A stretch of DNA of 64,000 nucleotides. It comes from Enterobacter phage EspM4VN. The stretch lies in sequence record LC373201.2. One strand, given 5' to 3'. A program made the translations under genes and the position numbers. Of this stretch, positions 2,588 through 61,052 are shown piece after piece. Numbering within the stretch: the stretch's first letter is position 1; every line of letters starts with the position of its first letter. The notes under the pieces were generated by a model that saw only the letters and a list, made by a program, of their open reading frames with translations, was not told the origin of the DNA and did no database searches.

Positions 2588-3229
2588 TCATCTAGATCTC
2601 GCTGGAAGAACTCCCACTGGTTCAATCCCATCCAACAGTAGGGAGTTCACCCCAACGTTGCTCAGCCTGATCCATATCGTTCCTTCCGGCTTCACCTCAA
2701 ATATGTTCATCTCATTCCCAACTGCTTCCCCATTCACAAACACGCCCTGTGTTGCTATCCTCACGGGTTTGGTCGAGTCATTCACTATCTTGAATGTTAC
2801 AGTGAGTTCAGAGTTGACGTCAAGGCGACCTACAGTGTGTTGCTTCAGCTTTGCATAGAACGATGGGTTGAACGTGATGATGATGCTGTTGTTCTGGGAG
2901 TAATAAATACTGGCAGACAGGTAAGGTATCTTCCCCTCATCACCCTTTCGAAGCAGGGGGATGGTAGTCTTCCAGTAAGGCTTGAGGGTGTTGGTGTTCT
3001 CCTCGAAGCAACCCAGAGGTATCAGCTTTTGGAACGTCTGGAACTCTTGGACGATCCCATCAAGGATTCCTTTGTTGCAGGTCTGAACATCAGCCGATAT
3101 CGTGACAGGCAATGTGCGCACTTCTGGGTTCCAGAGTTCGGAAACAGAAATGATTGGCGTGACAAAGATGCGACAGCTCACAAGAAGGAGCACCGCACAT
3201 GCCAACAGCAATCTACTGATCCCGCGCAT
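2588..3229 (-). CDS. putative lipoprotein (signal peptide plus lipobox LLLVSC)
   Basis: Minus-strand ORF with MRGISRLLLACAVLLLVSC at the N-terminus. It is an isolated reverse gene among + strand genes. Confidence 0.45.
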   Translation of the reverse strand: MRGISRLLLACAVLLLVSCRIFVTPIISVSELWNPEVRTLPVTISADVQTCNKGILDGIVQEFQTFQKLIPLGCFEENTNTLKPYWKTTIPLLRKGDEGKIPYLSASIYYSQNNSIIITFNPSFYAKLKQHTVGRLDVNSELTVTFKIVNDSTKPVRIATQGVFVNGEAVGNEMNIFEVKPEGTIWIRLSNVGVNSLLLDGIEPVGVLPARSR

Positions 3230-3267
3230 CAGGGTCACAAAATATCTCCACAGCAAAAGGTGCTATT

Positions 3268-3768
3268 ATGTCTGACGTACAATTCAAGAACGAAAACCCT
3301 AATTTTGCGGCGTCTGATAAATGGCGCTTATCAATCGGCGACTTAACGCTTGTGTCCCGCAATATTCATGACTTCAGCATTCCTGGCCTCTATTCAGAGG
3401 GTATCGATGGTCCATCACCAGGCGATGTGCTTGTATCCATACCGTCGGAACGTTTAACATATGATCCCATCGTATTTACTTTCGTTATAGATGAGGACTG
3501 GAAGTCATGGCTTCAGATCCACAACTGGATTAAGTCCAACGTTGGCTTGGATATGCCTGTCAGCAAGGATATCGTGATCGAGTTGTTGGACAACCTCAAC
3601 CGCCCGATTGGCCTGACCCTGGTACTGGAAGATGCTCGCCCGACGGCTCTTGACAACGTTCTGGTCGACGTCGATGCTGCAGTGCCTCAGCTGGTGACGA
3701 CTGTGACCTTCAAGTTCCAGCAGATGGTTCCTCAGCTGGCGACCAAAGAAGTTGTTCCTAACCCGTGA
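3268..3768 (+). CDS. gp19-family tail tube / tube-cap-like protein (166 aa)
   Basis: Two motifs match the T4 gp19 family: YDPIVFTFVIDEDW (compare FDDWTVTVMNDE) and RPTALDNVLVDVDAAVPQLVTTVTFKF (compare WPTNVGELQLDWDSNNEIQTFEVT). Confidence 0.45.
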   Translation: MSDVQFKNENPNFAASDKWRLSIGDLTLVSRNIHDFSIPGLYSEGIDGPSPGDVLVSIPSERLTYDPIVFTFVIDEDWKSWLQIHNWIKSNVGLDMPVSKDIVIELLDNLNRPIGLTLVLEDARPTALDNVLVDVDAAVPQLVTTVTFKFQQMVPQLATKEVVPNP

Positions 3769-3810
3769 AATGCGGTATAATTCTATGACATTGACAAGCT
3801 GGGATATTTT

Positions 3811-4263
3811 ATGAAAGAACAACTACAGACAATGGCAACCGAGGACATCATGAACGAACTGGAGCCGCTGATTACAGTGGACCCAGAAGACATGAACCTC
3901 GACCAGATCTCACTAAAGATCGGGCGCTCTTGGATGGCTGTACAGCGACATTACCTGCGTGAGGGACGTTATCTTGAATTCCTCAACGGGCGCTTCCGCC
4001 AGATCGATCTTTATCTGCGCCGCTATTATGCAGGGGAGTTACCACCGAACATCTATGCGGAGCGTCCCCTGAAGGTTCGCCCCCTGAAGTCTGACTTGGA
4101 CACATGGGTCAAAGCCGACGATGACTATGTAGAATTGTCTGTTCTATTGCAAGAGCAGAAGGCAAAGGTCAAATTTATTGAGACTTGTTTGGATCGTCTG
4201 AACAAGCTCGGGTATGAAGTGAAGAACGCCATCGATTGGCGTCGTTACATGGATGGTTCCTGA
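3811..4263 (+). CDS. hypothetical protein (150 aa)
   Basis: ORF in the track. The next gene is coupled through an ATGA overlap. Confidence 0.5.
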   Translation: MKEQLQTMATEDIMNELEPLITVDPEDMNLDQISLKIGRSWMAVQRHYLREGRYLEFLNGRFRQIDLYLRRYYAGELPPNIYAERPLKVRPLKSDLDTWVKADDDYVELSVLLQEQKAKVKFIETCLDRLNKLGYEVKNAIDWRRYMDGS

Positions 4264-5009
4264 TGGCATCTCTCCAAGCCCTGCGCAAGCTGAACGACTT
4301 CGAAAATCGCCATTACACATTCCAGCAGTACGAACTTCCTCATAAGGAACTGGAGTGTGTGACGACGGAGAACGGTCGTCATTATGTGTCACCAACTGGT
4401 GTCAAGCTGACGTCTGTCACGACTATGCTGGGGCGCACTGGTGATCATGAATGGCTTGAGGCTTGGAGGGAGAAGCTTGGTGCAGAGGCCGCCGACCTCG
4501 AGACCATGCGTTGTGCCGACCGAGGGGAGAAGCTGCATCTTGCATGTGAACTGTATTTGAAGAACCGCCCAATGAAAGAAGTGTTGGAAGCGGCTGGCGA
4601 ATACATGTTCATGTTCAAGCAGCTGTTCCCCTACCTGAACAAGATGACAAAGATCTATGCTCAGGAGATCCCATTATATAGCGAGGTGCTTGGCCTCGCA
4701 GGTCGAGTGGACCTTATCGGGGTTTATGAGGGCAAGCCTGCCATCATCGACTTCAAGACGTCGAACATCATGAAGACGCGGGGAATGATCGAGGACTACA
4801 GTATCCAGCTGTGCTTGTACTCTGTTATGTTCCAGCAGATGTTCGGTGTCAAGATCACCCGCCTCATCAATGTGATTGCCAACGAGTCTTCCCCTCTACC
4901 AACCGTCATTGAGTTCAACCGTGATGACATCCTGACAAAGATGTTTGAGCGTGTTCGTCTGTACCATCGCATGGATAAAGAACAGAACGGAGTCTGGCCG
5001 GATCGCTAA
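4263..5009 (+). CDS. PD-(D/E)xK family nuclease (RecB/Cas4-like fold)
   Basis: Motif D-x(n)-DLIGVYEGKPAIIDFKTS is a D...E-x-K core, with conserved VSPTG and LSVTTMLG segments upstream. Start is ATG at 4263, overlapping the upstream stop. Confidence 0.55.
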   Translation: MASLQALRKLNDFENRHYTFQQYELPHKELECVTTENGRHYVSPTGVKLTSVTTMLGRTGDHEWLEAWREKLGAEAADLETMRCADRGEKLHLACELYLKNRPMKEVLEAAGEYMFMFKQLFPYLNKMTKIYAQEIPLYSEVLGLAGRVDLIGVYEGKPAIIDFKTSNIMKTRGMIEDYSIQLCLYSVMFQQMFGVKITRLINVIANESSPLPTVIEFNRDDILTKMFERVRLYHRMDKEQNGVWPDR

Positions 5010-5037
5010 ATACCCCATAATCCTTGGGAGATTTTGT

Positions 5038-6545
5038 ATGGCAGACATTCAGATTGTTAAGGTTAACGAAGTCCGCATGCGTTGCATCGCAGATCTTTCT
5101 ATCAGGGAAGAACTGAATGACTACTTCAAATTCGAAGACCCGAACTTCGTTCCCAACCCTTCTCTAAATGGGACGGGGTTGTTCGCTTGTTTACCAAGTC
5201 ATCCGGCCTGATCGATATCGGCCTACTGTTTGAGGTGTTCAAGTTCTGCAAGAACAACAAATACACCATCGAACTGGATCCGGCTCTGAAGTACATTCAG
5301 GACATCCCAGATGAAGAAATCCATGACTTCATCGACAGCCTGCATCCAAAGATTCGCACCGAAAATCACGAATACATCGATGCCGAGACCCGTGACTATC
5401 AGTACGACACCATCGCCAAGGCTATGCGTCAAACCAGATGCGTCTGTGAACTGGCTACGAGTGCTGGTAAGTCCTTTATTCTGTATGTCATGGCGCGGTA
5501 CTACAGGCAGCGCAGAGAAGCTCTCGAAAGCCCTCTGAAGACGCTTATCGTGGTGCCGTCGATTCACCTGGTTACTCAGCTGTACGACAACTTTGAAGAG
5601 TATGCACACGGCAGTGATTGGAAGCCCGTTGTCAACACTCAGCTGATCTATGAGGGTGCGACTAAACAGATCAGCAAGCCGATCGTCATCAGTACATGGC
5701 AGGGCATTCAAGACCAGCCGAAGGAATGGTTCCATCAGTTCGGTGACATCGTGGTGGATGAAGTGCACACCTCCAAGTCTGAGAAGCTGTCCTACATCCT
5801 GAACAACTGCATCTATGCAGATCAGCGTCTGGGTGTTACGGGTACGCTGGCAAACACGAAGGTCGCAGGCCTGCAGGTCGTGGCCCACTTCGGGGCATAC
5901 CACAAGATCATCACGGCTCGCGACCTTATCAATCTCGGGTATGCCACCGACATCAAGGTGAAGATGATCCAGCTGAAGCACACTTCAGCAGATGCAGTTG
6001 GTCTGGACGGGGATTATACCAAGGAAATAGAATACCTTATTACACACCAATCCCGCAACGAACTGATCGCCAAGATGGCACTGAATCTGAAAGGGAACGT
6101 GGCGATCATGTTCGAGCGTATTGATGGCCACATGATGGTCGTGTATGATATGCTGAGCGCAGTTAAGCCCAACGTGTTTGTCATCAACGGGGAAGTGAAG
6201 ATCGAAGACCGCCGCCGCATACAGAAAGCGATGGAGGATGGAGAAGATATCACCCTGTTGGCTTCATATGGGACAATGCAGCAGGGTGTGTCAATCAAGA
6301 AGTTACATCACCTTGTGCTGGCGCACCCGAGCAAGTCGTATATCCGCGTCATACAGACATTGGGTCGTCTGATGCGTCAGCACTCCTCTAAGGACGTCGC
6401 ATGGATATGGGATTTAGTGGATGATGTGTCTTACAACGCAAGCACGAACCACGCTATCAGGCACTCTCATGAGCGTTACAAGTTCTACCTGACAGAGCGC
6501 CACCCTGTGGAGTTCATGAAGGTGGCGCTGGGTAATCACGATTGA
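5038..6545 (+). CDS. uvsW: UvsW-like SF2 DNA helicase, interrupted by one frameshift near 5157-5190 (track ORFs 5038..5211 in frame 1 and 5187..6545 in frame 3)
   Basis: N-terminus MADIQIVKVNEVRMRCI...DYFKFEDPNFVPNP aligns with the T4 UvsW N-terminus. The next frame then gives FSKWDGVVRL... and continues through helicase motifs (ELATSAGKS, VVDEVH, TGTLANT, QTLGRLMR). Adding one C to the CCC run at ~5157 restores the frame. Confidence 0.75.
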
Positions 6546-12194: not shown

Positions 12195-14225
12195 ATGTCA
12201 GAATTTAAGCCCTTCGCAGTAGCTGTTAACAATAACGTGCTGGCCATGTCGGCAACTGGTCTGTTCATGACCAATATCGATAAAGATGCTCTGTGGGATC
12301 TGTATCTGTCTTCTTTCCCTGCTGGTACCAACCCGCTTTACCGTGAGCGTACCGAGCACGACTGCACCTGCTGCAAACAATTCATCCGTAACATCGGCGG
12401 TGTGGTGACCATCACCCCTGATTACGAAATGATTACTATCTGGGACGGTATTCAGCTGGGTAACGAATACGATGTTGTCGCTGCGGCGCTGTCTGCGTAT
12501 GTTAAGCAGCACGCAATCGTCGACGTGTACTTCAACGACACCAAGAAAGTCGGTGTTGAGTCGAATCACGAAATGAAAGACGGCAACGTCCGCACGTACA
12601 ATCACTTCCACACCGACCTGCTCAGCAAATTCGTTTTGCGCGGCGACGACATTGCTTCTAAGAAGGGTGAAATCCGCCAGGCTGTAGAAGTATTTCGTCG
12701 CTCGGCTGAAGAATTGACTCTGGAGTCGGTTGAAATCGTTCTGGAACTCATTGATCAGAATTCTCTGTACCGTGGCGACGAACACAAGCACACGGTCAAG
12801 AACTTCTTTGATTTCAAACGTAAACTGTTCCCTCGCGTTCAGCAAATGCCAGAAGCGCAGAAATCTATGTTCTACTGGTACGAAGGTACTCGTGAAAACG
12901 TGGCTCGTTCCTTGGGTATCCGAAACACTGTCATCGGTACGTTGCTGCAAGATCTGTCAGAAGGCCGCGACCTGGAAACCGCCGTCAAGTCTTTCGAAGC
13001 CAAAGTCGCTCCGACGAACTACAAGCGCCCAACCGCGCTGGTCACGAAGTCCATGATCGAAAATGCGCAGAAAGAAGTTGAAGCGCTGGGGCTGACTGAT
13101 TCGCTCGGCCGCCGTTATGCTGTGTATGACGACCTGACCATCAACAACGTCCTGTTCGCCGATCTGGCGGCTCAGAAGAAGATGGACCCGTTTGCTCAGC
13201 TGGCGTCTGAAGTGAAGACTCCGACCAAGTCCCTAGATAAGGTTGAAGAGATCACGATCGACGACTTCCTGGCCAATGTGCTGCCGAAAGCGCACTCAAT
13301 GGAAGTGCTGGTTGAGAACTCTCATACTGGCAACCTGATGTCTCTGATCGCTCCGGCTACCGCAGGCGCTCCTAACCTGTTCAAGTGGAACAACGGCTTC
13401 AGCTGGTCGTACAATGGCGAAGTGGCCGACTCCATCAAAGAGCGTGTGAAGACAGCAGGCGGTAACGTCGACGGTTTCCTCCGTGTGTCGCTGGCGTGGC
13501 ATAACAACGACGACCTGGACCTGAGCATGAACGATCCGCTGCACAATCATGTGTATTACCACAACCGTCGTTCGGCAACTGGCGCAACCCTGGATATCGA
13601 CATGAACGGTATGGACGGTATTGATCCAAACCGCCGTCCGGTTGAGAACATCTTCTTTAGCGATGAGCGCCGACTGCGTGATGGGGAATATAAATTCTAT
13701 GTCACCAACTTTAGACAGCGCGAAACCTGTGATGCGGGCTTCGAAATCGAAGTCGAATACAAAGGTCAGACCAAGCGTTATTCGCATCCTGTTATGAAGG
13801 ACAAAGATCGCATTCTGGCTGTTGTGATTGATGTCCGTGCTGGTCAGGTAGTGGATATTCGTTCAGACCTGAAAGACGATGCTCGCTCTCAGGAAATCTG
13901 GGGTATCAAGACTGCCGTCTTCCAGAAGGTGCAGCTGGTTCTGAACTCACCAAACCATTGGGACGGCGAGCAGACAGGCAACAAGCACGTGTTCTTCATC
14001 CTGGAAGGTTGTGCTAACCCTGTCGGCACCCGTGGCTTCTACAACGAGTATCTGAAGCCGGAACTGGATAAACACCGCAAGGTTTTTGAAATGTTAGGCG
14101 GTAAGATTAAGGTACAGCCAAGCACTGAGCAGCTGTCCGGTCTGGGCTTCTCCACCACCCAACGCAACCACGTGTTCGTGAAGGTGAGCGGCTCGTTCAA
14201 CCGCACTGTGAAAGTTGTGTTCTAA
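12195..14225 (+). CDS. large protein (676 aa) with a N-terminal Cys cluster (HDCTCCKQF) and a central TerD-like segment
   Basis: VSLAWHNNDDLDLSMND...SATGATLDIDMNGMDGIDP resembles the TerD GLGWD...DFDLDASAF...GDN.TGEGDGDDE Ca-binding core. The assignment is tentative. Confidence 0.5.
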   Translation: MSEFKPFAVAVNNNVLAMSATGLFMTNIDKDALWDLYLSSFPAGTNPLYRERTEHDCTCCKQFIRNIGGVVTITPDYEMITIWDGIQLGNEYDVVAAALSAYVKQHAIVDVYFNDTKKVGVESNHEMKDGNVRTYNHFHTDLLSKFVLRGDDIASKKGEIRQAVEVFRRSAEELTLESVEIVLELIDQNSLYRGDEHKHTVKNFFDFKRKLFPRVQQMPEAQKSMFYWYEGTRENVARSLGIRNTVIGTLLQDLSEGRDLETAVKSFEAKVAPTNYKRPTALVTKSMIENAQKEVEALGLTDSLGRRYAVYDDLTINNVLFADLAAQKKMDPFAQLASEVKTPTKSLDKVEEITIDDFLANVLPKAHSMEVLVENSHTGNLMSLIAPATAGAPNLFKWNNGFSWSYNGEVADSIKERVKTAGGNVDGFLRVSLAWHNNDDLDLSMNDPLHNHVYYHNRRSATGATLDIDMNGMDGIDPNRRPVENIFFSDERRLRDGEYKFYVTNFRQRETCDAGFEIEVEYKGQTKRYSHPVMKDKDRILAVVIDVRAGQVVDIRSDLKDDARSQEIWGIKTAVFQKVQLVLNSPNHWDGEQTGNKHVFFILEGCANPVGTRGFYNEYLKPELDKHRKVFEMLGGKIKVQPSTEQLSGLGFSTTQRNHVFVKVSGSFNRTVKVVF

Positions 14226-14269
14226 ACCTGATTTGAAACTGTAACCCATTCATCATTGAGGATAGTAAA

Positions 14270-14641
14270 ATGTTTGATAAAGCAACCCGTCTGAAACTGC
14301 GCTTCGAGTCTAACAAAGGTCTGCTGTCTGTTGAGCAGGTTTGGGACCTGAGCCTGACCGCTCTGAACGAAATGGCGAAAAGCCTGAGCCGTCAGGTGAA
14401 GGCAGCGGAAACCGATGAAGAAGATTTCATCGGCACCAAAAGCAACGTTGACTCCGAACTGCAGCTGCGCTTCGACGTTGTCAAGCACATCATCGGCGTT
14501 AAGCTGAAAGAGCGTGACGACAGCAAAGACGCGGCAGAGCGTAAGGCGAACAACCAGGTTATCCTGGAACTGATCCAGCGTAAGAAACAGCAGGAGCTGG
14601 AAGGCAAATCTGTTGAAGAACTGGAAGCGCTGCTGAAATAA
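14270..14641 (+). CDS. hypothetical charged protein (123 aa)
   Basis: ORF followed by a clear intrinsic terminator at 14663-14690. Confidence 0.5.
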   Translation: MFDKATRLKLRFESNKGLLSVEQVWDLSLTALNEMAKSLSRQVKAAETDEEDFIGTKSNVDSELQLRFDVVKHIIGVKLKERDDSKDAAERKANNQVILELIQRKKQQELEGKSVEELEALLK

Positions 14642-14662
14642 CCTGTCGGCCTCGGCCTGAGC

Positions 14663-14690
14663 AACCCCGCCATGTGCGGGGTTTCTTTTG
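14663..14690 (+). terminator. intrinsic terminator (aaccccgc-catgt-gcggggtt-tcttttg)
   Basis: GC stem plus T-run after gene 14270..14641. Confidence 0.6.
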
Positions 14691-14700
14691 GACAAAGAAT

Positions 14701-15102
14701 ATGAAACCTGTCATCTGTGATTACTGCGGCCTCCCAGCCGAATTCGTCGGTGGTGATGTTCTCTACCCTCATCGCCCTGACCTTCGCAATCTGAAGTTCT
14801 GGGTTTGTACCCCATGTGACGCTCGTGTCGGTTGTCATACCCATGGCGACGGTAGACAGCCTCTGGGAAGGATGGCGAATGCCGCTCTCCGTGCCGAGAA
14901 GCAAAATGCCCATAGATCGTTTGACCCACTGTGGAAAAGCGGAGAAAGGAGCAGGAGCGACGCTTACAGTTGGCTGGCGCATAAGCTGGGGATCAAGAAG
15001 CGCGATTGCCATATCGGCTTGTTCGATATCGACATGTGCCGTAAAGTAGTTGCTGTATGCAACCAATTACGGGAAACACAGAATGGCAACCATCAATCGT
15101 AA
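14701..15102 (+). CDS. Cys-rich zinc-ribbon protein (133 aa)
   Basis: CDYCG...CTPCDARVGCH. The ATG at 14701 is in the frame of track ORF 14674..15102. Confidence 0.5.
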   Translation: MKPVICDYCGLPAEFVGGDVLYPHRPDLRNLKFWVCTPCDARVGCHTHGDGRQPLGRMANAALRAEKQNAHRSFDPLWKSGERSRSDAYSWLAHKLGIKKRDCHIGLFDIDMCRKVVAVCNQLRETQNGNHQS

Positions 15103-15877
15103 TGAACCCAAAGGTGTTGAGCTGAAGGGTAAATCTGTTCGCGAAGGTCTGAAGCTGTCTCCAGACCTCCTGAAGTCACACATCGCCGAAGTCATCTATG
15201 AAGACCGTGAAGTCGGCGGCCACCGCGTCATCACCTGCCACTTCAAGATGGACAACGGATTTATCGTCTGGGGCAAGAATAGCTCTACTTCCATCGACCC
15301 TGCCAACTTTGATGAAGAGTTGGGCAAGAAGCTGGCCTATGACAAGACCTTCTCCCAGTTGTGGGAACTGGAAGCCTACCGCGCCGTCGTAGAGAAGCAG
15401 ATGTTGGAGGTGGCTACCGCCGATGCGAAGATAGACATTTTCCAGTACATCTCCGAAAGGGGGAAGATAAATCAGATGGCTGGCATGGAATTCTTGAAAG
15501 GTCATGGCCAGTCTTTCTTGTTCCACCACTCACGAGATCCGAGTCGAGGGTTCGTTGCTGATTTTGTTCAAACAGACAATGAACGATACAACGACCAACA
15601 CAACAGTAAAGCCCAAGCTGGGGTGGAAGCATATCTGCGTTCGCACATGCTACCAGATGAACTGTATTCTGAACTCGTTGTTCGTCTGGCCAAGACTTGC
15701 GCGGCGGCTTACAAGGGTGGGATCTACTTTAATGCCACCACTTGGGATAAGATGAGCGCTGAAGAACAGAAAGACTGCTGTGAAGACATCAGGCGGCTCT
15801 TGCTGGCTCCGGTGGATTATATCCCAACCGACCAGAAGGACGCGCTGTTCAAGGCCATCGTAGACTCCTACAAATAA
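15083..15877 (+). CDS. hypothetical protein (264 aa)
   Basis: ORF overlapping the 3' end of the upstream gene. A terminator lies at ~15908-15934. Confidence 0.5.
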   Translation: MATINRNEPKGVELKGKSVREGLKLSPDLLKSHIAEVIYEDREVGGHRVITCHFKMDNGFIVWGKNSSTSIDPANFDEELGKKLAYDKTFSQLWELEAYRAVVEKQMLEVATADAKIDIFQYISERGKINQMAGMEFLKGHGQSFLFHHSRDPSRGFVADFVQTDNERYNDQHNSKAQAGVEAYLRSHMLPDELYSELVVRLAKTCAAAYKGGIYFNATTWDKMSAEEQKDCCEDIRRLLLAPVDYIPTDQKDALFKAIVDSYK

Positions 15878-15907
15878 CTGAATTATCAAACTCCTTCAAT
15901 AACAATG

Positions 15908-15956
15908 ACGCCCAGTATATTTGCTGGGCGTTTCAATTTGTGCATCACAGTATAAT
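15908..15956 (+). promoter_or_regulatory. terminator (cgcccag-tatatttg-ctgggcg-ttt) followed by a consensus -10 TATAAT (weak -35), upstream of the prs/nampt pair
   Basis: Read directly. A CTTCAATAA element lies 20 nt upstream, at ~15889. Confidence 0.4.
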
Positions 15957-15987
15957 ACGGCTGTACAATACACCATGAGGCTACATT

Positions 15988-16842
15988 ATGTTTCGTTTGA
16001 AATTGAACGACCAAGATGTGTTCTACAAACACTTCACCTTCCCAGGTGGTGAGGAACACGTCAAGATCCAAAAGGCTGGCATCCCTGTCGGAAGAGTAAG
16101 AACCGTGGAAATCGAAGCCCATATCAAAACGTCGGCAGGCTTCATTGAACTGGCGCTATTAATGGACGCCTTGCGTGGTCTGGGTAACGTGGATCGCATG
16201 ACGGAATATCACGTCACTATCCCTTACTTCCCATATGCCCGCCAGGATCGCCGTTGCGACTTTGGTGAGCCTCTGTCGGTGAAGTGGGCGGCTGAGTTCA
16301 TCAATAGTATGAACTTTGACAATGTGTGGATCAAAGACCCTCACAGCAATGTCGTTACTTCTCTGATCAACAACGTCCATGTGGTCCCGCAAGATTACAT
16401 CGTGCGTCAGTATCTGGGCTGGTTCATCCGTGGGAACAACGCTGTGTTGGTAGCCCCTGACGGCGGCGCGGCGAAGAAGACCGAAACCCTCAGCCTGTCA
16501 TTGGATGGCGTTCCTGTTGTCTACGGGCACAAGAATCGTGACACCAAGACTGGTGAGATCATTGGGGTGAGCATTACAAACCCTGAACTGATCAAAGACC
16601 GCTATCTGGTAGTGGTCGATGATATCTGTGACGGTGGGCGCACGTTTGTTGAGCTGGGCAAAGAGCTTCAGAAGCACAAGCCTAAGCACATGACGCTCTT
16701 CGTCACCCATGGCATCTTCAGCAAAGGTCTCTCTGTTTTCGACGGGATCTACGATGCTGTGTATGCCGACACTGTCTGGTGGGAGAACATCACCGCCGAC
16801 GGTCTTCCTTTCAAAACTGAAAATACAGGACGTGTAAAATGA
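15988..16842 (+). CDS. ribose-phosphate pyrophosphokinase (Prs) homologue, candidate NARP1 Adps
   Basis: PRPP-synthetase/type-I PRTase signatures: YFPYARQDRR, VAPDGGAAKK and the PRPP-binding loop LVVVDDICDGGRT. It is translationally coupled (ATGA) to the NAMPT-like gene. Confidence 0.75.
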   Translation: MFRLKLNDQDVFYKHFTFPGGEEHVKIQKAGIPVGRVRTVEIEAHIKTSAGFIELALLMDALRGLGNVDRMTEYHVTIPYFPYARQDRRCDFGEPLSVKWAAEFINSMNFDNVWIKDPHSNVVTSLINNVHVVPQDYIVRQYLGWFIRGNNAVLVAPDGGAAKKTETLSLSLDGVPVVYGHKNRDTKTGEIIGVSITNPELIKDRYLVVVDDICDGGRTFVELGKELQKHKPKHMTLFVTHGIFSKGLSVFDGIYDAVYADTVWWENITADGLPFKTENTGRVK

Positions 16843-18503
16843 GCATGCGCCACTTAGATCCAATCCATGCAATCGACTTCTACAAATCAGGTCACATCTA
16901 TCAATTCCCTGAAGGCAGCGAGCTGGTGTTCTCCAACGGAACTCCGCGTTCCAACAAACTGTTCAACTCTCACCTGCCGAAGAACGGCGTGGTGGTCTGG
17001 GGTATCCAGGGCTTCATGACCTGGTTCCACGAACTGTTTGACGAAGCGTTCTTCCAGCGCCCAAAGGCCAAGGTGCTGAAGAAGTATGCCCGTCGCATGA
17101 ACAAAGTGCTGGGACCAGGCCGCGTCGGCACAGAGCATATCGAAGCCCTGCACGACCTCGGCTACCTGCCTATCGAAGTCCGTGCTCTGCCTGAAGGCAC
17201 CATGTGCCCGTATGGCGTTCCGGTGTATGTGATGTTCAACACCTTGCCGGAGTTCTACTGGCTGACCAACTATCTGGAGACTGTATTCAGCTCTGAGATC
17301 TGGAAGCCGATGACGAACGCCACCATCGCCCTGCACTACAAAGCGTTGATGGTGAAAGCTGCTATCGCTACAGGCGTGTCGCCGGACCATTGGTTCATCG
17401 ACTACCAAGGCCATGACTTCTCCTTCCGTGGTATGAGCGGGTGGCATGACGCTGCGTCTTCCGGTTCCGGCCACCTGGTGTTCTTCAAAGGCACCGATAC
17501 CAACCCTGCCCTAGACTTCGTTGAAGAGTACTATGGCGCAGACATCGACGAAGACTATGTCGTTGCTGGCTCCGTTGCGGCTACCGAACACGCCGTGATG
17601 TGTATGGGCACGAAGGATGGCGAATTCGAAACCTTCCGCCGCCTGGTGCAGGACGTGTATCCTGATGGCATCGTCAGTATCGTGTCTGACGCGTGGGACT
17701 ATTGGCAGGTCATCGACGACTATCTGCCTCGCCTGAAAGACATTATCATGGCACGCAACGGTAAAGTCGTGATCCGCCCTGACTCGGGCGACCCTGTACA
17801 CATCGTTGGCGGCTACCGCATTGAATCATTCCGCAATCGTGGGACGCTTCAGTTAAGCAGCGTGTCCAGCAGCACCGAAGTCATTCACATCGAAGAGACG
17901 AACACCTATCACCTGATCACAGGCGAAGGCACGATCAACTCTCTGATGGCAGATGACCGCAATATCATCAGCCGTTCTGAAGCGGTCGGCTCTATTCAAC
18001 GCCTGTGGGAGATCTTTGGTGGCACCCAGACCGAAACTGGCCACTTCCTGTTGGATGAGCACATCGGTCTGATCTACGGTGACTCCATCACCCTGGCACG
18101 TGAAGACCAGATCTTTGGCCGTCTGGCTGGCCGGAACTTCGCTTCCATCAACGTGGTCTTCGGTATCGGTTCCTACACCTACCAGATGAACACCCGTGAC
18201 AGCACTGGGACGGCGGTGAAAGCCACGGCTGGTAAAGTGAACGGTGAATTCCGTGAGATCTTCAAAGAGCCGAAGACTGACAAAGGCGGGACTAAAAAGT
18301 CTGCGCGTGGTTTCCTTAAAGTCATTAAAGACTCTCAGGGTAAACTAGTGTTGGTTGACGGTATCACCTTTGATCAGGTACAAGACGCCGACAACCAGCA
18401 CCAGCTGGTGTACCGTGATGGTAAGTTCTCCAACACTCAGACTCTGGAAGATGCGCGTGTTCGTGCCGCTCCTCTGGTGGCGGAACTGGCCTCACAAATC
18501 TGA
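16839..18503 (+). CDS. nadV: nicotinamide phosphoribosyltransferase (NAMPT/NadV) homologue, candidate NARP1 Namat
   Basis: 554 aa. The N-terminus MSMRHLDPIHAIDFYKSGH...GFMTWFHELFDEAFFQRPKAKVL is typical of NAMPT. A strong terminator follows at 18513-18535. Confidence 0.85.
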   Translation: MSMRHLDPIHAIDFYKSGHIYQFPEGSELVFSNGTPRSNKLFNSHLPKNGVVVWGIQGFMTWFHELFDEAFFQRPKAKVLKKYARRMNKVLGPGRVGTEHIEALHDLGYLPIEVRALPEGTMCPYGVPVYVMFNTLPEFYWLTNYLETVFSSEIWKPMTNATIALHYKALMVKAAIATGVSPDHWFIDYQGHDFSFRGMSGWHDAASSGSGHLVFFKGTDTNPALDFVEEYYGADIDEDYVVAGSVAATEHAVMCMGTKDGEFETFRRLVQDVYPDGIVSIVSDAWDYWQVIDDYLPRLKDIIMARNGKVVIRPDSGDPVHIVGGYRIESFRNRGTLQLSSVSSSTEVIHIEETNTYHLITGEGTINSLMADDRNIISRSEAVGSIQRLWEIFGGTQTETGHFLLDEHIGLIYGDSITLAREDQIFGRLAGRNFASINVVFGIGSYTYQMNTRDSTGTAVKATAGKVNGEFREIFKEPKTDKGGTKKSARGFLKVIKDSQGKLVLVDGITFDQVQDADNQHQLVYRDGKFSNTQTLEDARVRAAPLVAELASQI

Positions 18504-18512
18504 TAACCGAAG

Positions 18513-18535
18513 GGGAGGAAACTCCCCTGTTTTGA
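18513..18535 (+). terminator. intrinsic terminator (ggggag-gaaa-ctcccc-tgttttg) after the nampt-like gene
   Basis: GC stem plus T-run. Confidence 0.6.
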
Positions 18536-18544
18536 GGTCGAGGA

Positions 18545-18715
18545 ATGTCCAAACCATTCAAAAATGCGGGTGTCGACAACCTCGACCGCCGCTTTACTCC
18601 ATCGGAAACGCTGATGAGCCAGATTGAACTCAATCGCGATTTCCTGGAACATATGCTGGTCAAGCCGGAAGGTGAGGCCGAAGACAACCCTGAAGAAGGC
18701 AATAACGATGATTGA
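18545..18715 (+). CDS. small acidic protein (~56 aa)
   Basis: Hand-found ORF (MSKPFKNAGVDNLDRRF...EGNNDD) with a GAGG RBS. Its stop overlaps the vWA gene start (ATGATTGA). Confidence 0.3.
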   Translation: MSKPFKNAGVDNLDRRFTPSETLMSQIELNRDFLEHMLVKPEGEAEDNPEEGNNDD

Positions 18716-20939
18716 ATCATTAGAATTTAAGAATGCGGTTGCGACTGCTGCTCCGTCCAACCATGTAATCGTTGTGGACATCTCTTATTCGATGTACCGT
18801 GCGCTCCCTGAAGTCCGTAAGCATCTGAAGGAGAACCTGCCTTCTCTGGTGAAACCGGAAGACACTGTGAGTGTTCTGTACTTCTCATCCCGTGGCGACT
18901 TTGGTACTGTGTTCGCTGGCCGTCAGGTTAGTGCAGCATCTGACCTGAGTGAGCTGAACAAACTGATCGACCGCTTCCTGCAGCCATCTGGCTGTACTGG
19001 CTTTGTTGAGCCTTTAAAGCTGGCGTTCGATACTGCAGACAGCCTGAAGAAGCCTGGCTATGTCAACAACCTGGCGTTCATGACCGATGGTTATGACAAC
19101 TGCTGGCGTACCAACGAAATCCTGCTGGTCGCCGAGACCCTGCCTCATGCATTCGACAACATCACGTTCATCGAATACGGCTGGAACTGTAACCGCGAAC
19201 TGCTGTCGCAGATGGCTGAACGCTCTGGTGCGACTCACGTGTTCGCCGAAGGCCAGACTGAATATCAGACTGAGCTGGAAAACGTTCTGAAGTCCTCGGT
19301 GCCGAAGGTTCGTGTCGACATCAGCGCCCTATACACGCATGCCATCTACGTTGAAAATGGCGTAGCAACTGTGTTAGCTGCTCAGTCGGACGTGAAAGAT
19401 TCGGATATCCCTGGGGTGAAGGTCGAAGTAAGCGCCTACGTTAACGTCCCTGAGAGCGTCACCAAGCTGTGGGTTGTAAACCCTAACATGATCGACCAGA
19501 TGGATAGCCTGACGGATATCCAGGCGGCATACGTGCTGGCGTTCTACGGCGTACACACGATGGACGCAGATCTGGTTTGGGCTGCTCTGAAGAAGACTGG
19601 TGACGTGCGCTTCATCAAGCGTTACAACAACTGCTTCACCAAGCAGGACTACTCCAACATCAAGATCGATCTGGTACAGGCTATCGTTGACGACCAGCTG
19701 CGCGGCGTTGAAGGCATCGACTACAACCTGGTTCCGGCTGAAGACGCAACCACCGTCGTTGATGTGCTGACGTACCTGGCCGAAGCTGGTGTGTCTGTTG
19801 CAACCAAGCATCCTATGTTCTCCTATCGCAGCATTGGTCGCGGTACTGTGCAGAAAGCCGACGACACCGAAGACAAGCTGGCTGAAGAGATCGCGAATGC
19901 TCAGTCCAAAGAAGAGCGTAAAGCCCTGGCTCTCAAGCTGGCAGAGCACGAAGAGTGGACGCCGTCGTTTGAACCTGCGAACGATCTGGGCGTGGTTCCA
20001 ATCAGCGACCTGGTCTATAACTCCGAGCGCCCGAACATCAGTGTGCGTACAATTCAACACGGTACTGTGGCGGTGCCTGAGTTCGCGCAGAAGAAGTTTG
20101 GCCTGCCTGAAGAACTGGACACCTTCCAGTGGCGCAACTACACCATCGTCAAAGATGGCATCATCAACGTGAAGACCCTGCCGTTCAAGGCTGACGCCGA
20201 AGTTGCGACTGTTCTTCATCAGATGGGCGTTCACGTGTTCGGTGGCCAGAACGACGTGTTCATCCTGAACCTGGAAAGCGTACCGCTGGTCAACCGCGCC
20301 ATGACCAAGAACATCAGTGCTGCTCAGTTCTTTGCCGACAACGTCCGCCTGGAAGCCCTGAAAGGCAAACAGAAGGTGCTGAAGTTCTACCGTGACGCCC
20401 TGGTTGGTAAGGGTAACGCCAAAGGTCTGGCTATTCAGTACGGTGCCGAGGCCGCAGAATACCTGTCTGGCGTTGGCATCCGTGATTACGGCTTCTCACC
20501 GAAGACTGAGACCAAGGAGTCTACCGACTTCTACATGAGCCGTGAGCTGAACGTGAAGATCGCTGGCGCTTCTTCCCTGCCGTCTATCGCAGCGGTGCAG
20601 AAGAAGATTGCCGACAAGAAGAACCTGAATGCTGGTGACATGTTCATCGCCAATGCGCTGAAAGAGTACGATGCATTCGTGAAGTCTCCGGCCATTACTG
20701 CTGTACCTGAAGCCGTACAGAAACAGCTGATCGAAAACTGGATCGACGCTGCTGCCAAGGCGGCCATCACCGAAGTCCGCGCCCTGAACAAGACGCTGTC
20801 TAAAGTGGTGTACGGTATCGTTGCTGGCCACGGCTGGTTCACCGACCTCGATCTGGAAGAGTCAACCATGGAAGTTGAAGTGGATGGCGTGAAGTACAAG
20901 GTCACTGCCGAACTGGCAGAGAAAGAGATCAAAATCTAA
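18708..20939 (+). CDS. von Willebrand factor A (vWA) domain protein (~743 aa)
   Basis: MIDAS motif VIVVDISYSMY (DxSxS), then TGFVEPL and FMTDGYDN. The long C-terminal part is alpha-helical and Ala-rich. A terminator follows at 20946-20969. Confidence 0.7.
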   Translation: MIESLEFKNAVATAAPSNHVIVVDISYSMYRALPEVRKHLKENLPSLVKPEDTVSVLYFSSRGDFGTVFAGRQVSAASDLSELNKLIDRFLQPSGCTGFVEPLKLAFDTADSLKKPGYVNNLAFMTDGYDNCWRTNEILLVAETLPHAFDNITFIEYGWNCNRELLSQMAERSGATHVFAEGQTEYQTELENVLKSSVPKVRVDISALYTHAIYVENGVATVLAAQSDVKDSDIPGVKVEVSAYVNVPESVTKLWVVNPNMIDQMDSLTDIQAAYVLAFYGVHTMDADLVWAALKKTGDVRFIKRYNNCFTKQDYSNIKIDLVQAIVDDQLRGVEGIDYNLVPAEDATTVVDVLTYLAEAGVSVATKHPMFSYRSIGRGTVQKADDTEDKLAEEIANAQSKEERKALALKLAEHEEWTPSFEPANDLGVVPISDLVYNSERPNISVRTIQHGTVAVPEFAQKKFGLPEELDTFQWRNYTIVKDGIINVKTLPFKADAEVATVLHQMGVHVFGGQNDVFILNLESVPLVNRAMTKNISAAQFFADNVRLEALKGKQKVLKFYRDALVGKGNAKGLAIQYGAEAAEYLSGVGIRDYGFSPKTETKESTDFYMSRELNVKIAGASSLPSIAAVQKKIADKKNLNAGDMFIANALKEYDAFVKSPAITAVPEAVQKQLIENWIDAAAKAAITEVRALNKTLSKVVYGIVAGHGWFTDLDLEESTMEVEVDGVKYKVTAELAEKEIKI

Positions 20940-20945
20940 TCCAAC

Positions 20946-20969
20946 GGGCGGGGCAACCCGCCTTTCTTT
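20946..20969 (+). terminator. intrinsic terminator (gggcgggg-caa-cccgcc-tttcttt) after the vWA gene
   Basis: GC stem plus T-run. Confidence 0.55.
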
Positions 20970-20981
20970 GGGAGAAGTAAC

Positions 20982-21308
20982 ATGAGCAGTAAACCAACAT
21001 ATGTTGAAGTCATGCGTCATCTGGCTCAGTACGCCACTGACAATCTGAATCTGGAAGTCAGTGATGAGGACAAGAGTAGCATCAAAGGAATCGTCGACGC
21101 CGAAGTGGTAATCAACGATGCCCTGGACAAGCTGGCTGGCCTCCGCACCAAGAAAGACCTCGGTGGTGATGAACTCGATGCTATCGAAATCGTAATGGAC
21201 CTCGAAGAAGAGTTTCAGGTAGAAATCGACGATGGTTGGCTGGGTAGTAAAGGCGATGACCCTACCATGGGCGAACTCGCTGAACTCGTGGTTGCCCTGC
21301 GCAAATAA
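20982..21308 (+). CDS. acyl-carrier-protein-like protein with Ser-to-Glu substitution at the phosphopantetheine site
   Basis: KKDLGGDELDAIEIVMDLEEEFQVEIDD aligns with ACP ...[27 protein letters not shown]. The DSL attachment serine is DEL here. Confidence 0.6.
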   Translation: MSSKPTYVEVMRHLAQYATDNLNLEVSDEDKSSIKGIVDAEVVINDALDKLAGLRTKKDLGGDELDAIEIVMDLEEEFQVEIDDGWLGSKGDDPTMGELAELVVALRK

Positions 21309-58383: not shown

Positions 58384-58405
58384 GCCCTCTTCGGAGGGCT
58401 TTTTA
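58384..58405. terminator. bidirectional intrinsic terminator (gccctc-ttcg-gagggc, flanked by A-run and T-run) between gp32 and the convergent minus-strand gene
   Basis: aaa-gccctc-ttcg-gagggc-ttttt reads as a terminator on both strands. Confidence 0.55.
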
Positions 58406-59344: not shown

Positions 59345-59398
59345 GATGAGGACTCCACTTAAATATGATATCTGTTGTTACTTATAAGGAGTTGACAA

Positions 59399-60099: not shown

Positions 60100-60164
60100 T
60101 AGTTCTATAACCCGTTCCGAGGATAATTCGTGAACGGGTAATCCTTCAACAATGAGGCTATATC

Positions 60165-60916: not shown

Positions 60917-60962
60917 TTGGTTTTCAATATTGACGTTGAAAGTTAATATTCACGCAAGTTCG

Positions 60963-61052
60963 CGCCCCGCTTGGCTGGGCGCTGTTTAACACGAAGGTGT
61001 TAACTTCTTTTCAATAAAAAGTGGTTTACATCTATGAAAAATGCAGTATATT
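60963..61052 (+). promoter_or_regulatory. terminator (gcgccc-cgcttggct-gggcgc-tgttt), then an ACTTCTTTTCAATAAA element and promoter TTTACA-N16-TATATT
   Basis: Read directly, upstream of gene 61123. Confidence 0.45.

What the first reader, a model, noticed from the sequence alone, without database searches (positions are those of the whole stretch)
15988..18503. Prs-like and NAMPT-like gene pair: a candidate NARP1 NAD+ reconstitution anti-defence module
A PRPP-synthetase homologue and a nicotinamide phosphoribosyltransferase homologue are translationally coupled (ATGA overlap). They share a dedicated sigma70-like promoter (TATAAT at ~15951) and a strong terminator at 18513. A lytic phage has no obvious need for PRPP synthesis. 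Phage genes annotated Prs and NadV have been shown to be Adps and Namat, which rebuild NAD+ from ADP-ribose and nicotinamide to defeat NAD-depleting immunity (Thoeris, DSR, SIR2-HerA, SEFIR). The two-gene architecture here fits that NARP1 pair. No NMNAT gene was found in this window, although part of its 3' end is frame-disrupted.
Basis: partly seen in the sequence, partly recalled or inferred. Interest (0 to 1): 0.65.

Follow-up and report, generated by a model that had tools for sequence, protein, structure and literature searches.

The report
Phage NAD-rebuilding gene pair (NARP1)
This is an ordinary, intact copy of the known two-gene phage pathway NARP1, which rebuilds NAD+ from the fragments left by NAD-destroying bacterial defences, and near-identical copies in sister phages were already catalogued as such.

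Summary
Two intact, co-oriented genes lie at 15988-16842 (284 aa, Prs-like) and 16839-18503 (554 aa, Nampt-like), joined by an ATGA overlap. A TATAAT sits at 15951 and a hairpin plus T-run at 18511-18533.

ORF1 groups with the two experimentally validated Adps enzymes, apart from cellular Prs (bootstrap 200/200). It keeps the catalytic lysine and shows 8 of 9 Adps-specific residue states. ORF2 is 43% identical to both validated Namats. Its model best matches the Namat crystal structure (TM 0.95), and it carries the Namat adenine-clamp motif (GSYTYQMNTRD) rather than the Nampt form.

No NMNAT, NadR/PnuC, Macro or RyR partner was found in the window or in the whole genome of the closest relative.

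It is not new. The window comes from an Agtrevirus-like phage (family Ackermannviridae). The NARP1 discovery paper's tables already list the orthologues from phages SKML-39, Ag3 and 0507-KN2-1, and a 2024 review makes the same link.

Corrections:
- The promoter is the family's known TTCAAT-N14-TATAAT motif, not a canonical sigma-70 promoter.
- The terminator is modest.
- The pair is accessory cargo that Kuttervirus relatives replace with an unrelated small ORF.

The parts
15907..15932 (+). Hairpin (11-bp stem, 4-nt loop) followed by TTTCAATTT. It is a terminator-like element for the upstream gene and marks the left edge of the conserved slot.
   Evidence: RNA fold gives -19.2 kcal/mol, z = -4.63, with 0 of 200 shuffles as stable. 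It was also found by the terminator scan. It is partly conserved in Kuttervirus SE14 and ECML-4.
15932..15956 (+). Promoter-like motif TTCAAT-N13-TATAAT (TTCAAT at 15932-15937, TATAAT at 15951-15956).
   Evidence: Five copies on the + strand of the window against 0.10 expected. It matches the published Ackermannviridae motif TTCAAT[N14]TATAAT (PMC7283392). It is invariant across Agtrevirus and Kuttervirus, and divergence starts right after TATAAT. It is not a canonical sigma-70 promoter. Activity is inferred, not shown.
15977..15980 (+). Shine-Dalgarno GAGG, 7 nt upstream of the ORF1 ATG.
   Evidence: Read directly from the sequence.
15988..16842 (+). adps: ADP-ribose pyrophosphokinase (Adps), 284 aa, a member of the Prs family.
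   Evidence: Sits in the Adps clade, with the split from Prs supported 200/200. All 17 core residues shared by Prs and Adps are kept, and 8 of 9 Adps-diagnostic columns show the Adps state. Identity is 34.6% to Bas63 Adps and 27% to E. coli Prs. It scores 104 on TIGR01251, below the cutoff of 113; SPbetaL1 Adps scores 106 and E. coli Prs 423. dN/dS is 0.15 against P46FS4.
16531..16533 (+). Codon for Adps K182, equivalent to SPbetaL1 Adps K162, in the motif GHKNRDTKTGEI.
   Evidence: Alignment column shared with SPbetaL1 K162, Bas63 K190 and Bsu Prs K198. The K162A mutation abolishes NARP1 activity (10.1101/2024.02.11.579819).
16618..16647 (+). Adps-type ribose-phosphate loop DDICDGGRTF. Cellular Prs has DD(I/M)xDTxGT here.
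   Evidence: Alignment. The diagnostic column Prs T229 to Adps G holds G216 in the window protein. A role in accommodating the ADP moiety is my inference.
16827..16842 (+). Translational coupling region: AGGA (16827-16830), 8 nt, then ATGA, which is the ORF2 start overlapping the ORF1 stop.
   Evidence: Read from the sequence.
16839..18503 (+). namat: nicotinamide ADP-ribose transferase (Namat), 554 aa, a member of the Nampt family.
   Evidence: 43% identical to SPbetaL1 Namat (E 9e-146) and to Bas63 Namat (E 2e-139). The best PDB sequence hits are 9w5w and 9w5x (E 1e-134), against 1e-50 for human NAMPT. The AlphaFold model has pLDDT 92.4. Its best fold match is the Namat crystal structure, with TM 0.95 and rmsd 1.9 A. 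All catalytic and ligand residues are conserved. dN/dS is 0.043.
16941..16979 (+). Selectivity-clamp loop (SCL) TPRSNKLFNSHLP. It has the same length and pattern as Bas63 TPRSDKWFNSPL.
   Evidence: Alignment. K40 occupies the Arg/Lys/Tyr position described in PMC12774641. The next residue is L41, where Bas63 has the stacking Trp.
17814..17987 (+). 58-aa insertion (residues 326-383) after the RPDSGDP strand. It is absent from the crystallised SPbetaL1 Namat.
   Evidence: It is predicted as a folded beta-rich mini-domain with pLDDT of about 87-96. The site holds a variable insertion, of roughly 10-80 aa by motif spacing, in 61 of 119 close homologues, and a larger one in the validated Bas63 Namat. 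It has no Pfam family.
18168..18200 (+). Selectivity-clamp helix (SCH) motif GSYTYQMNTRD (residues 444-454).
   Evidence: Namat consensus is GSX-phi-X-phi-X-phi-TRD (PMC12774641). SPbetaL1 has GSFTYQYNTRD and Bas63 GSYTYQYMTRD. The Nampt forms are GGGLLQEVTRD (phage Matisse), GGGLLQKLTRD (human) and GAQTYQRNTRD (HdNadV). Position 7 is Met instead of Tyr. Among the 120 closest homologues, position 7 is Y in 92, M in 12, F in 8, H in 7 and C in 1.
18511..18533 (+). Intrinsic-terminator-like hairpin AGGGGAG-GAAA-CTCCCCT followed by G and TTTT. It marks the right end of the cassette.
   Evidence: Fold gives -15.4 kcal/mol, z = -1.35. It is conserved in P46FS4, where the megablast block ends at 18537. 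It is absent from Kuttervirus genomes that lack the pair.

Best explanation
The two genes encode NAD+ reconstitution pathway 1 (NARP1).

- ORF1 (Adps) uses ATP to pyrophosphorylate the terminal ribose of ADP-ribose, giving ADPR-pyrophosphate.
- ORF2 (Namat) replaces that pyrophosphate with nicotinamide, giving NAD+ directly.

When a host defence such as SIR2-HerA, type I Thoeris, DSR1/2 or SEFIR cleaves NAD+ into ADPR and nicotinamide, the phage recycles those two products and keeps replicating.

The pair is expressed as one translationally coupled unit. It sits behind a conserved Ackermannviridae TTCAAT-N13-TATAAT element and ends at its own hairpin. It is accessory cargo in a slot that Kuttervirus relatives fill with a different small gene.

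Shown here: gene integrity, clade membership, conserved catalytic and clamp residues, fold, purifying selection, absence of an NMNAT partner, and the cassette boundaries. Inferred from homologues: the two chemical reactions, the anti-defence phenotype and the promoter activity.
For: - Gene anatomy and coupling.
- ORF1 lies inside the clade bracketed by the validated Bas63 and SPbetaL1 Adps. The split from Prs has 200/200 bootstrap support.
- K182 corresponds to catalytic K162. All 17 core residues are kept, and 8 of 9 diagnostic columns show the Adps state.
- ORF1 scores on Prs models like the validated SPbetaL1 Adps (104 vs 106 on TIGR01251, both below the cutoff of 113) and far below a true Prs.
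- ORF2 is 43% identical to both validated Namats. The Namat SCH motif and all NAD+-contacting core residues are present.
- All 120 nearest homologues share the Namat motif. The closest bona fide Nampt, HdNadV, does not.
- The ORF2 model is most similar to Namat crystal structures 9w5x and 9w5w.
- dN/dS is 0.15 for ORF1 and 0.04 for ORF2.
- No NMNAT, NadR or PnuC is annotated in P46FS4. There is no NadD or NadR similarity and no GxFxPxHxGH signature.
- Orthologues from SKML-39, Ag3 and 0507-KN2-1 are listed as the NARP1 type in Osterman et al. Tables S1 and S2.
- The mechanism and phenotypes of homologues are described in that paper and in PMC12774641.
Against: - No biochemical or genetic test exists for any Ackermannviridae copy.
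- ORF1 is only 33-35% identical to the validated Adps enzymes, and no Adps structure exists to define substrate-specifying residues.
- Two of the three adenine-stacking positions of the Namat clamp are non-aromatic here. M450 replaces SPbetaL1 Y396, and L41 replaces the Bas63 Trp. The preference for ADPR-PP could therefore be weaker than in SPbetaL1.
- My tree holds only 20 sequences and three Prs outgroups.
- The NatV/NadM-type NMNAT was not searched with its own sequence. I could not locate the KVP40 gene.
Confidence: 0.88

Rival explanations
1. Canonical salvage. ORF1 is a true PRPP synthetase and ORF2 a true Nampt. Together they make NMN, which host enzymes (NadR, or PncC plus NadD/NadE) convert to NAD+. 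This would be a metabolic booster rather than direct ADPR recycling.
For: Pfam, PHROG and GenBank annotations say Prs and Nampt. NF006629 passes its cutoff for ORF2. Validated Namats can still make NMN from PRPP in vitro.
Against: The same annotations and HMM scores apply to the validated Adps and Namat proteins, so they do not discriminate. ORF1 is separated from Prs with 200/200 support, lacks the Prs N- and C-terminal segments, and carries the Adps states at diagnostic columns. The ORF2 clamp is the Namat type. SPbetaL1 Adps gave no product under the assay for Prs-type activity, and Bas63 still overcame defence in a pncC nadR double-deletion host.
Confidence: 0.04
2. A NARP1 variant with relaxed donor selectivity. 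With Met at SCH position 7 and Leu at the SCL stacking position, this Namat binds adenine less tightly. It would use ADPR-PP and PRPP (or another ADPR derivative) more evenly than SPbetaL1 Namat.
For: M450 and L41 replace aromatic stackers. In SPbetaL1, double clamp mutants lose ADPR-PP-driven NAD+ synthesis but keep NMN synthesis.
Against: The dominant stacker is kept: Y446, equivalent to F392. S445, T452, R453 and D454 are also kept. Single clamp mutations cost only 1.3- to 1.7-fold. Met at position 7 recurs in 12 of the 120 nearest homologues, so it looks like tolerated variation. ORF2 is under strong purifying selection next to an intact Adps.
Confidence: 0.07
3. A decaying or non-functional remnant. 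The Ag3 copy is collapsed into a fusion, and the window shows frameshifts elsewhere.
For: Ag3 carries an in-frame fusion that lacks the Adps C-terminus and the first ~226 residues of Namat. Genes at 58-64 kb of the window are split.
Against: Both ORFs are full length, have no indels relative to P46FS4, keep every catalytic residue and have dN/dS of 0.15 and 0.04.
Confidence: 0.01

Closest known systems
Orthologous adps-namat pairs of other Ackermannviridae (Salmonella phages P46FS4 and SKML-39, Shigella phage ChubbyThor, Klebsiella phage 0507-KN2-1)
   Same: Same position, order, ATGA-type coupling and lengths (284 and 554 aa). Amino-acid identity is 90-93% for Adps and 98% for Namat. SKML-39, Ag3 and 0507-KN2-1 are already listed in the NARP1 discovery paper's Tables S1 and S2. 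A 2024 review links Agtrevirus NAMPT and RPPK to evasion of NAD+ depletion.
   Different: The exact sequence is not in the phage collection; the best match is 93% nucleotide identity over the pair. The Adps differences from P46FS4 cluster in residues 25-124.
NARP1 of Escherichia phage Bas63 (JohannRWettstein; genes 79-80), validated in vivo
   Same: A Prs-like gene followed by a Nampt-like gene. Namat is 43% identical, with the same SCL length and pattern (TPRSxKxFNSxL). It has an insertion at the same site after RPDSGDP and an SCH of the GSYTYQ type.
   Different: Adps is only 34.6% identical. The Bas63 genes are separated by 45 nt rather than overlapping. Bas63 has Trp and Tyr where the window has L41 and M450. 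Its insertion is larger, and its Namat is 593 aa.
NARP1 of Bacillus phage SPbetaL1 (Adps/Namat; biochemically and structurally characterised, PDB 9w5w and 9w5x)
   Same: Catalytic K162 corresponds to K182. All Namat residues contacting nicotinamide, ribose phosphate and the TRD motif are conserved. The fold match has TM 0.95 and rmsd 1.9 A.
   Different: Adps identity is 33%. SPbetaL1 uses R40 as the SCL stacker and Y396 at SCH position 7. It has no 58-aa insertion.
NARP2 (Vibrio phage KVP40 NadV plus NatV) and NARP2-type phage Nampt (e.g. Klebsiella phage Matisse)
   Same: A Nampt-family enzyme used by phages to restore NAD+.
   Different: NARP2 needs an NMNAT and has no Adps. Its Nampt has GGGLLQxxTRD instead of the aromatic clamp. 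Identity is about 27%. No NMNAT was found here.
NARP1-AP (Vibrio phage Gary Adps-Adpp-Namat) and RyDEP-associated NARP1 (mycobacteriophage DyoEdafos)
   Same: The same two core enzymes.
   Different: The window has no Macro-domain phosphatase and no RyR-domain protein next to the pair. It is therefore the minimal two-gene form. By inference, it should not counter aRES (ADPR-1P) or degrade cADPR signals.
Cellular Prs (E. coli, B. subtilis, human PRPS1) and bona fide Nampt (H. ducreyi NadV, human NAMPT)
   Same: The same superfamilies and the same core catalytic residues.
   Different: Identity is 20-27% to Prs. The N- and C-terminal ends are shorter than in Prs. DPHS replaces DLHA, and DDICDGGRT replaces DDxxDTxGT. 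The Nampt enzymes lack the Ser-aromatic pair at SCH positions 2-3.

Membership tests
NARP1 (Adps + Namat) | A Prs-family gene and a Nampt-family gene, adjacent and co-oriented in one operon. | tested here: met
   ORFs at 15988-16842 and 16839-18503 with an ATGA overlap. Family assignments.
NARP1 (Adps + Namat) | Gene 1 belongs to the phage Adps clade, separate from cellular Prs. | tested here: met
   In the NJ tree the window protein lies inside the clade spanned by Bas63 and SPbetaL1 Adps. The split between Prs and phage proteins has 200/200 support. Eight of 9 diagnostic columns show the Adps state. The sample is small (20 sequences).
NARP1 (Adps + Namat) | The Adps catalytic lysine (SPbetaL1 K162) and the shared Prs-fold core residues are present. 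| tested here: met
   K182 aligns with K162, and all 17 core positions are kept.
NARP1 (Adps + Namat) | The Namat catalytic core is present (SPbetaL1 F189, R192, D215, R306, D308 and the catalytic His). | tested here: met
   F194, R197, D220, R313, D315 and H251.
NARP1 (Adps + Namat) | The Namat selectivity-clamp helix motif GSX-phi-X-phi-X-phi-TRD is present, with Ser at position 2 and an aromatic at position 3. | tested here: met
   GSYTYQMNTRD at residues 444-454. S445 and Y446 are present. The Nampt controls have GG or AQ at these positions.
NARP1 (Adps + Namat) | An aromatic residue at SCH position 7 (SPbetaL1 Y396) stacks on adenine. | tested here: not met
   The residue is M450. The source paper describes this position as 'most often' aromatic, not invariably so. 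Met occurs in 12 of the 120 nearest homologues.
NARP1 (Adps + Namat) | The clamp loop (SCL) supplies a stacking residue: Arg at the third position, or the residue after a Lys or Tyr. | tested here: inconclusive
   K40 is at the third position, as in Bas63, but the next residue is L41 (Trp in Bas63), followed by F42. Which residue contacts adenine cannot be read from sequence.
NARP1 (Adps + Namat) | Enzymology: ADPR + ATP gives ADPR-PP, and ADPR-PP + nicotinamide gives NAD+, with preference over PRPP. | not testable with these tools
   This requires purified proteins and LC-MS.
NARP1 (Adps + Namat) | The pair rescues phage from NAD+-depleting defence systems. | not testable with these tools
   This requires a phage knockout and hosts carrying the defence systems.
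NARP2 (Nampt + Nmnat) | An NMN adenylyltransferase is encoded in the same genome. | tested here: not met
   None among the 212 annotated features of P46FS4. There is no tblastn hit to NadD or NadR in the window or in P46FS4. No GxFxPx(H/T)xGH motif occurs in any frame of 100 aa or more. A NatV sequence itself was not used as a query.
NARP2 (Nampt + Nmnat) | The enzyme is the Nampt type, preferring PRPP and lacking the aromatic clamp. | tested here: not met
   The window has the Namat-type motif. Identity to NARP2-type Nampt is about 27%.
NARP3 (PnuC + NadR-like) | A PnuC-like transporter and a NadR-like bifunctional enzyme are present. | tested here: not met
   The family is defined in PMC13464706. 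There is no NadR similarity, and neither gene is annotated in P46FS4.
NARP1-AP (extended NARP1 with Adpp phosphatase) | A Macro-domain ADPR-1P phosphatase lies within or next to the operon. | tested here: not met
   A Pfam scan of the seven flanking ORFs found no Macro domain. The family is defined.
RyDEP-associated NARP1 | A RyR (PF02026) domain protein lies next to NARP1. | tested here: not met
   The upstream 275-aa protein has an N-terminal Phage_gp49_66 domain. Its C-terminal half gave no Pfam hit even at E <= 5. That gene is also present in Kuttervirus genomes that lack NARP1.
Bona fide ribose-phosphate pyrophosphokinase (Prs) | The protein passes the curated NCBIfam Prs model cutoffs. 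| tested here: not met
   TIGR01251 scores 104.2 against a cutoff of 113. The equivalog models score 50-92 against cutoffs of 296-536. E. coli Prs scores 423-532.

The most novel reading that the evidence does not exclude
The conserved hairpin plus TTCAAT-N13/14-TATAAT slot may be an exchangeable anti-defence locus of Ackermannviridae. Agtrevirus-like, Klebsiella-infecting and Dickeya-infecting members load it with NARP1. Kuttervirus phages load it with an unrelated 119-aa protein of unknown function (phrog_4254), which would then be an uncharacterised counter-defence factor. Separately, the Met and Leu substitutions in this Namat's adenine clamp could mark a lineage with altered donor selectivity.
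Probability: 0.15. Interest if true: 0.5.

Novelty: already known. Interest (0 to 1): 0.2.

Why it matters
This adds one more genome to a pathway found in about 4% of sequenced phages. In practice, it predicts that this Agtrevirus-like phage resists SIR2-, TIR- and SEFIR-based NAD+ depletion. It should stay sensitive to aRES, because it has no Adpp phosphatase. Both points are useful when choosing therapeutic or biocontrol Ackermannviridae phages. The pair is present in some members of the family and absent from most Kuttervirus genomes. That makes the family a natural test bed for the fitness value of NARP1. None of this changes current understanding.

Tried and rejected
1. Canonical promoter and terminator scan. 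It found no sigma-70 promoter and missed the downstream hairpin. I replaced it with a motif search and folding.
2. The idea that the upstream 275-aa gene is a RyR/RyDEP-like partner. A loose sequence resemblance suggested it. There was no Pfam hit at E <= 5, and the gene is kept in phages without NARP1, so I rejected it.
3. A Macro-domain Adpp partner. None was found in the neighbours.
4. Using NCBIfam NF006629 or Pfam to separate Namat from Nampt, or Adps from Prs. These are uninformative, because the validated enzymes score the same way.
5. Retrieving KVP40 NadV and NatV as controls. The 150-200 kb stretch I fetched did not contain them. I used the Matisse Nampt, E. coli NadD and NadR and a motif scan instead.
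6. Treating the 58-aa Namat insertion as unusual. I rejected this, because the site is variable in half of the close homologues and in the validated Bas63 Namat.
7. Treating Met at clamp position 7 as unique. I rejected this, because it occurs in 12 of the 120 nearest homologues.
8. tRNA and Rfam scans of the window found nothing.
The two Prs alignments were identical residue for residue (8dbc, 1dkr), and human NAMPT matched 2gvg over its full length (1-491, 1131 bits).


Full report
**What is there.** The window holds two intact, co-oriented ORFs at exactly the reported coordinates. ORF1 is 15988-16842 (284 aa) and ORF2 is 16839-18503 (554 aa). The ORF2 ATG overlaps the ORF1 TGA as ATGA. Each ORF has a Shine-Dalgarno sequence: GAGG at 15977-15980 and AGGA at 16827-16830. 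ORF1 matches Pfam PF00156 and PF13793 and PHROG 619 (ribose-phosphate pyrophosphokinase). ORF2 matches PF04095, PHROG 448 and NCBIfam NF006629.

**Where the window comes from.** It is collinear with 30.8-94.7 kb of Salmonella phage P46FS4 (Ackermannviridae, Agtrevirus) at about 90% nucleotide identity. No identical genome is in the phage collection. The best match over the gene pair is 93%.

**Expression signals.**
- TATAAT at 15951-15956 is real, but the consensus scan finds no sigma-70 promoter in 14-21 kb because there is no -35 box.
- The element is TTCAAT-N13-TATAAT (15932-15956). This pattern occurs five times, all on the + strand, against 0.1 expected by chance.
- It is the published family motif TTCAAT[N14]TATAAT (PMC7283392).
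- Immediately upstream is a strong hairpin at 15907-15932 (-19.2 kcal/mol, z = -4.6).
- Downstream of ORF2 is a 7-bp hairpin plus G and TTTT at 18511-18533. It is only modestly stable (-15.4 kcal/mol, z = -1.35).
- 'Dedicated sigma70 promoter' and 'strong terminator' are therefore overstatements. An independent transcription unit remains plausible. Promoter and terminator activity are inferred, not shown.

**Is ORF1 an Adps or a Prs?**
- I aligned ORF1 with the two experimentally validated Adps proteins: Bas63 gp79, fetched, and SPbetaL1 gp190, fetched.
- The alignment also held eleven phage proteins from Osterman et al. Table S1 that have an adjacent Namat, plus the close orthologues from P46FS4 and phage 0507-KN2-1.
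- The outgroups were three bona fide Prs proteins: E. coli, and B. subtilis and human.
- In the NJ tree ORF1 sits inside the clade spanned by the two validated enzymes. The split between Prs and the phage proteins is recovered in 200 of 200 bootstraps.
- ORF1 keeps all 17 core residues shared by Prs and Adps. These include K182, the equivalent of SPbetaL1 K162, whose K162A mutation abolishes activity.
- At 8 of the 9 columns that separate Adps from Prs, ORF1 shows the Adps state. Examples are DPHS against DLHA, and DDICDGGRT against DDxxDTxGT.
- Like the validated Adps proteins, ORF1 has shorter N- and C-terminal ends than Prs. On the Prs model TIGR01251 it scores 104; SPbetaL1 Adps scores 106, the cutoff is 113 and E. 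coli Prs scores 423.
- There is no solved Adps structure. Residues that specify ADPR as substrate therefore cannot be named with certainty.

**Is ORF2 a Namat or a Nampt?**
- ORF2 is 43% identical to both validated Namats. Its best PDB sequence hits are 9w5w and 9w5x, at E about 1e-134, against 1e-50 for human NAMPT.
- An AlphaFold model built on 59 homologues has pLDDT 92.4. It superposes best on 'Crystal structure of Namat' 9w5x and 9w5w (TM 0.95, rmsd 1.9 A). H. ducreyi NadV comes next, then mammalian NAMPT at TM about 0.90 and rmsd about 3.7 A.
- The Namat structure paper (PMC12774641) defines a selectivity clamp. One part is the helix motif (SCH) GSX-phi-X-phi-X-phi-TRD, whose aromatic residues stack on adenine. 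The other is a variable loop (SCL) that supplies one further stacking residue.
- ORF2 has GSYTYQMNTRD. SPbetaL1 has GSFTYQYNTRD and Bas63 GSYTYQYMTRD.
- The Nampt controls differ: phage Matisse has GGGLLQEVTRD, human NAMPT has GGGLLQKLTRD and HdNadV has GAQTYQRNTRD. The human sequence was checked.
- All catalytic and NAD+-contacting core residues are conserved.
- There are two deviations. Position 7 of the helix motif is Met (M450) rather than Tyr. In the loop, the residue after K40 is Leu where Bas63 has Trp.
- Among the 120 nearest database homologues, all carry the Namat-type motif. Position 7 is Y in 92, M in 12, F in 8, H in 7 and C in 1. Met is therefore a tolerated minority state.
- The 58-aa insertion at residues 326-383 is predicted to be a folded mini-domain. 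Its site is length-variable in 61 of 119 close homologues and holds a larger insertion in Bas63 Namat. It is not a distinguishing oddity.

**Partner genes.**
- None of the seven flanking ORFs has a Macro or RyR domain. This is the minimal two-gene NARP1. It is neither NARP1-AP nor a RyDEP-linked operon.
- None of the 212 annotated features of the complete P46FS4 genome is an NMNAT, NadR or PnuC.
- E. coli NadD and NadR give no tblastn hit better than E = 0.2 in the window or in P46FS4.
- No frame of 100 aa or more in either sequence contains the GxFxPx(H/T)xGH nucleotidyltransferase signature, which both controls show.
One caveat remains: I did not use a NatV-type sequence as a query.

**Selection and evolutionary context.**
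- Against P46FS4, dN/dS is 0.15 for ORF1 and 0.043 for ORF2, with no indels.
- The pair is accessory cargo. Kuttervirus genomes such as SE14 and ECML-4 keep the flanking genes, the hairpin and the TTCAAT...TATAAT element. Between them they carry a 119-aa ORF of unknown function (phrog_4254) instead.
- Sequence similarity breaks immediately after TATAAT and resumes inside the downstream 56-aa ORF.
- Only 85 phage records match the pair by megablast, against 286 that match the surrounding 22 kb.
- Shigella phage Ag3 carries an in-frame fusion of Adps residues 1-222 to Namat residues 227-554, which is probably inactive. This fusion is the source of the odd PHROG 12872.

**Mechanism.** The reactions are inferred from homologues and are not shown here.
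- Adps: ADPR + ATP gives ADPR-PP.
- Namat: ADPR-PP + nicotinamide gives NAD+.
- Together they restore the NAD+ pool that SIR2-, TIR- or SEFIR-based defences cleave.
- The phage lacks Adpp, so it should not counter aRES.

**Novelty.** The NARP1 discovery paper reports the pathway in 859 phage genomes. Its Tables S1 and S2 list the orthologues from SKML-39, Ag3 and 0507-KN2-1 as Prs-family with an adjacent Namat, and the SKML-39 Namat as 'Adps-associated'. A 2024 review of Ackermannviridae explicitly suggests that Agtrevirus NAMPT and RPPK evade NAD+-depleting defence, citing that paper. In the held library, none of the 15 listed papers naming this family or its genera contains the term NARP1, and I found no experimental test of an Ackermannviridae copy. 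I rate interest at 0.2.

Noticed in passing
window 15932, 46429, 56062, 57232, 62066 (+ strand); also 1825 and 5006: TTCAAT-N12-14-TATAAT occurs five times, all on the + strand, against 0.1 expected. Several copies are embedded in hairpins. CTAAATACCCC occurs twice. Both are published Ackermannviridae regulatory motifs. The short 12-14 nt spacer does not fit sigma-70 -35/-10 geometry.
   Followed up: partly
L010 (Salmonella phage SE14) 2148-2607; L011 (Escherichia phage ECML-4) 2248-2607; window 15957-18544: Kuttervirus relatives keep the same hairpin and promoter slot but carry a 119-aa ORF of unknown function (phrog_4254) instead of adps-namat. In SE14 that ORF is not annotated. The slot looks like an exchangeable cargo site.
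   Followed up: partly
P0009 (Shigella phage Ag3, FJ373894): Ag3 encodes a single 547-aa in-frame fusion of Adps residues 1-222 and Namat residues 227-554. It lacks the Adps C-terminus and the first ~226 Namat residues. It is either a natural loss of NARP1 or an assembly error, and it explains PHROG 12872.
   Followed up: partly
OR844942.1 'Enterococcus phage Efm 3-10', 3179-5836: A 111-kb unannotated record labelled as an Enterococcus faecium phage carries a 92% identical copy of this enterobacterial Ackermannviridae region. The host label is probably wrong, or the record is contaminated.
   Followed up: no
window 58400-64000: Several conserved genes are split into two ORFs each: the gp54-like tail tube/baseplate protein, the gp2-like DNA end protector and thymidylate synthase. 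There are 18 single-base gaps relative to P46FS4 in 61547-64000. Sequencing or assembly indels seem more likely than real pseudogenes.
   Followed up: partly
window 16060-16360 (ORF1 residues 25-124): Of the 27 amino-acid differences between this Adps and the P46FS4 orthologue, 23 fall in residues 25-124. This suggests a mosaic or fast-evolving N-terminal domain.
   Followed up: no
window 17814-17987 (ORF2 residues 326-383): The Namat insertion right after the catalytic RPDSGDP strand is predicted as a folded beta-rich mini-domain. The same site holds unrelated insertions, of roughly 10-80 aa by motif spacing, in about half of the close homologues. Its function is unknown.
   Followed up: partly
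P0040 (Chitinophaga caseinilytica), P0087 (Fibrella aestuarina): Chromosomal bacterial proteins about 50% identical to ORF2 carry the Namat-type clamp motif. This agrees with reports of bacterial NARP1 homologues.
   Followed up: no
window 12195-15877 and 18545-21308: The neighbours of the pair are mostly of unknown function:
- a 676-aa protein (phrog_1735);
- a DUF3268 zinc-finger protein;
- a 275-aa protein with an N4 gp49-like N-terminal domain;
- a 56-aa ORF;
- a 743-771-aa vWA-domain protein;
- an acyl carrier protein.
   Followed up: partly
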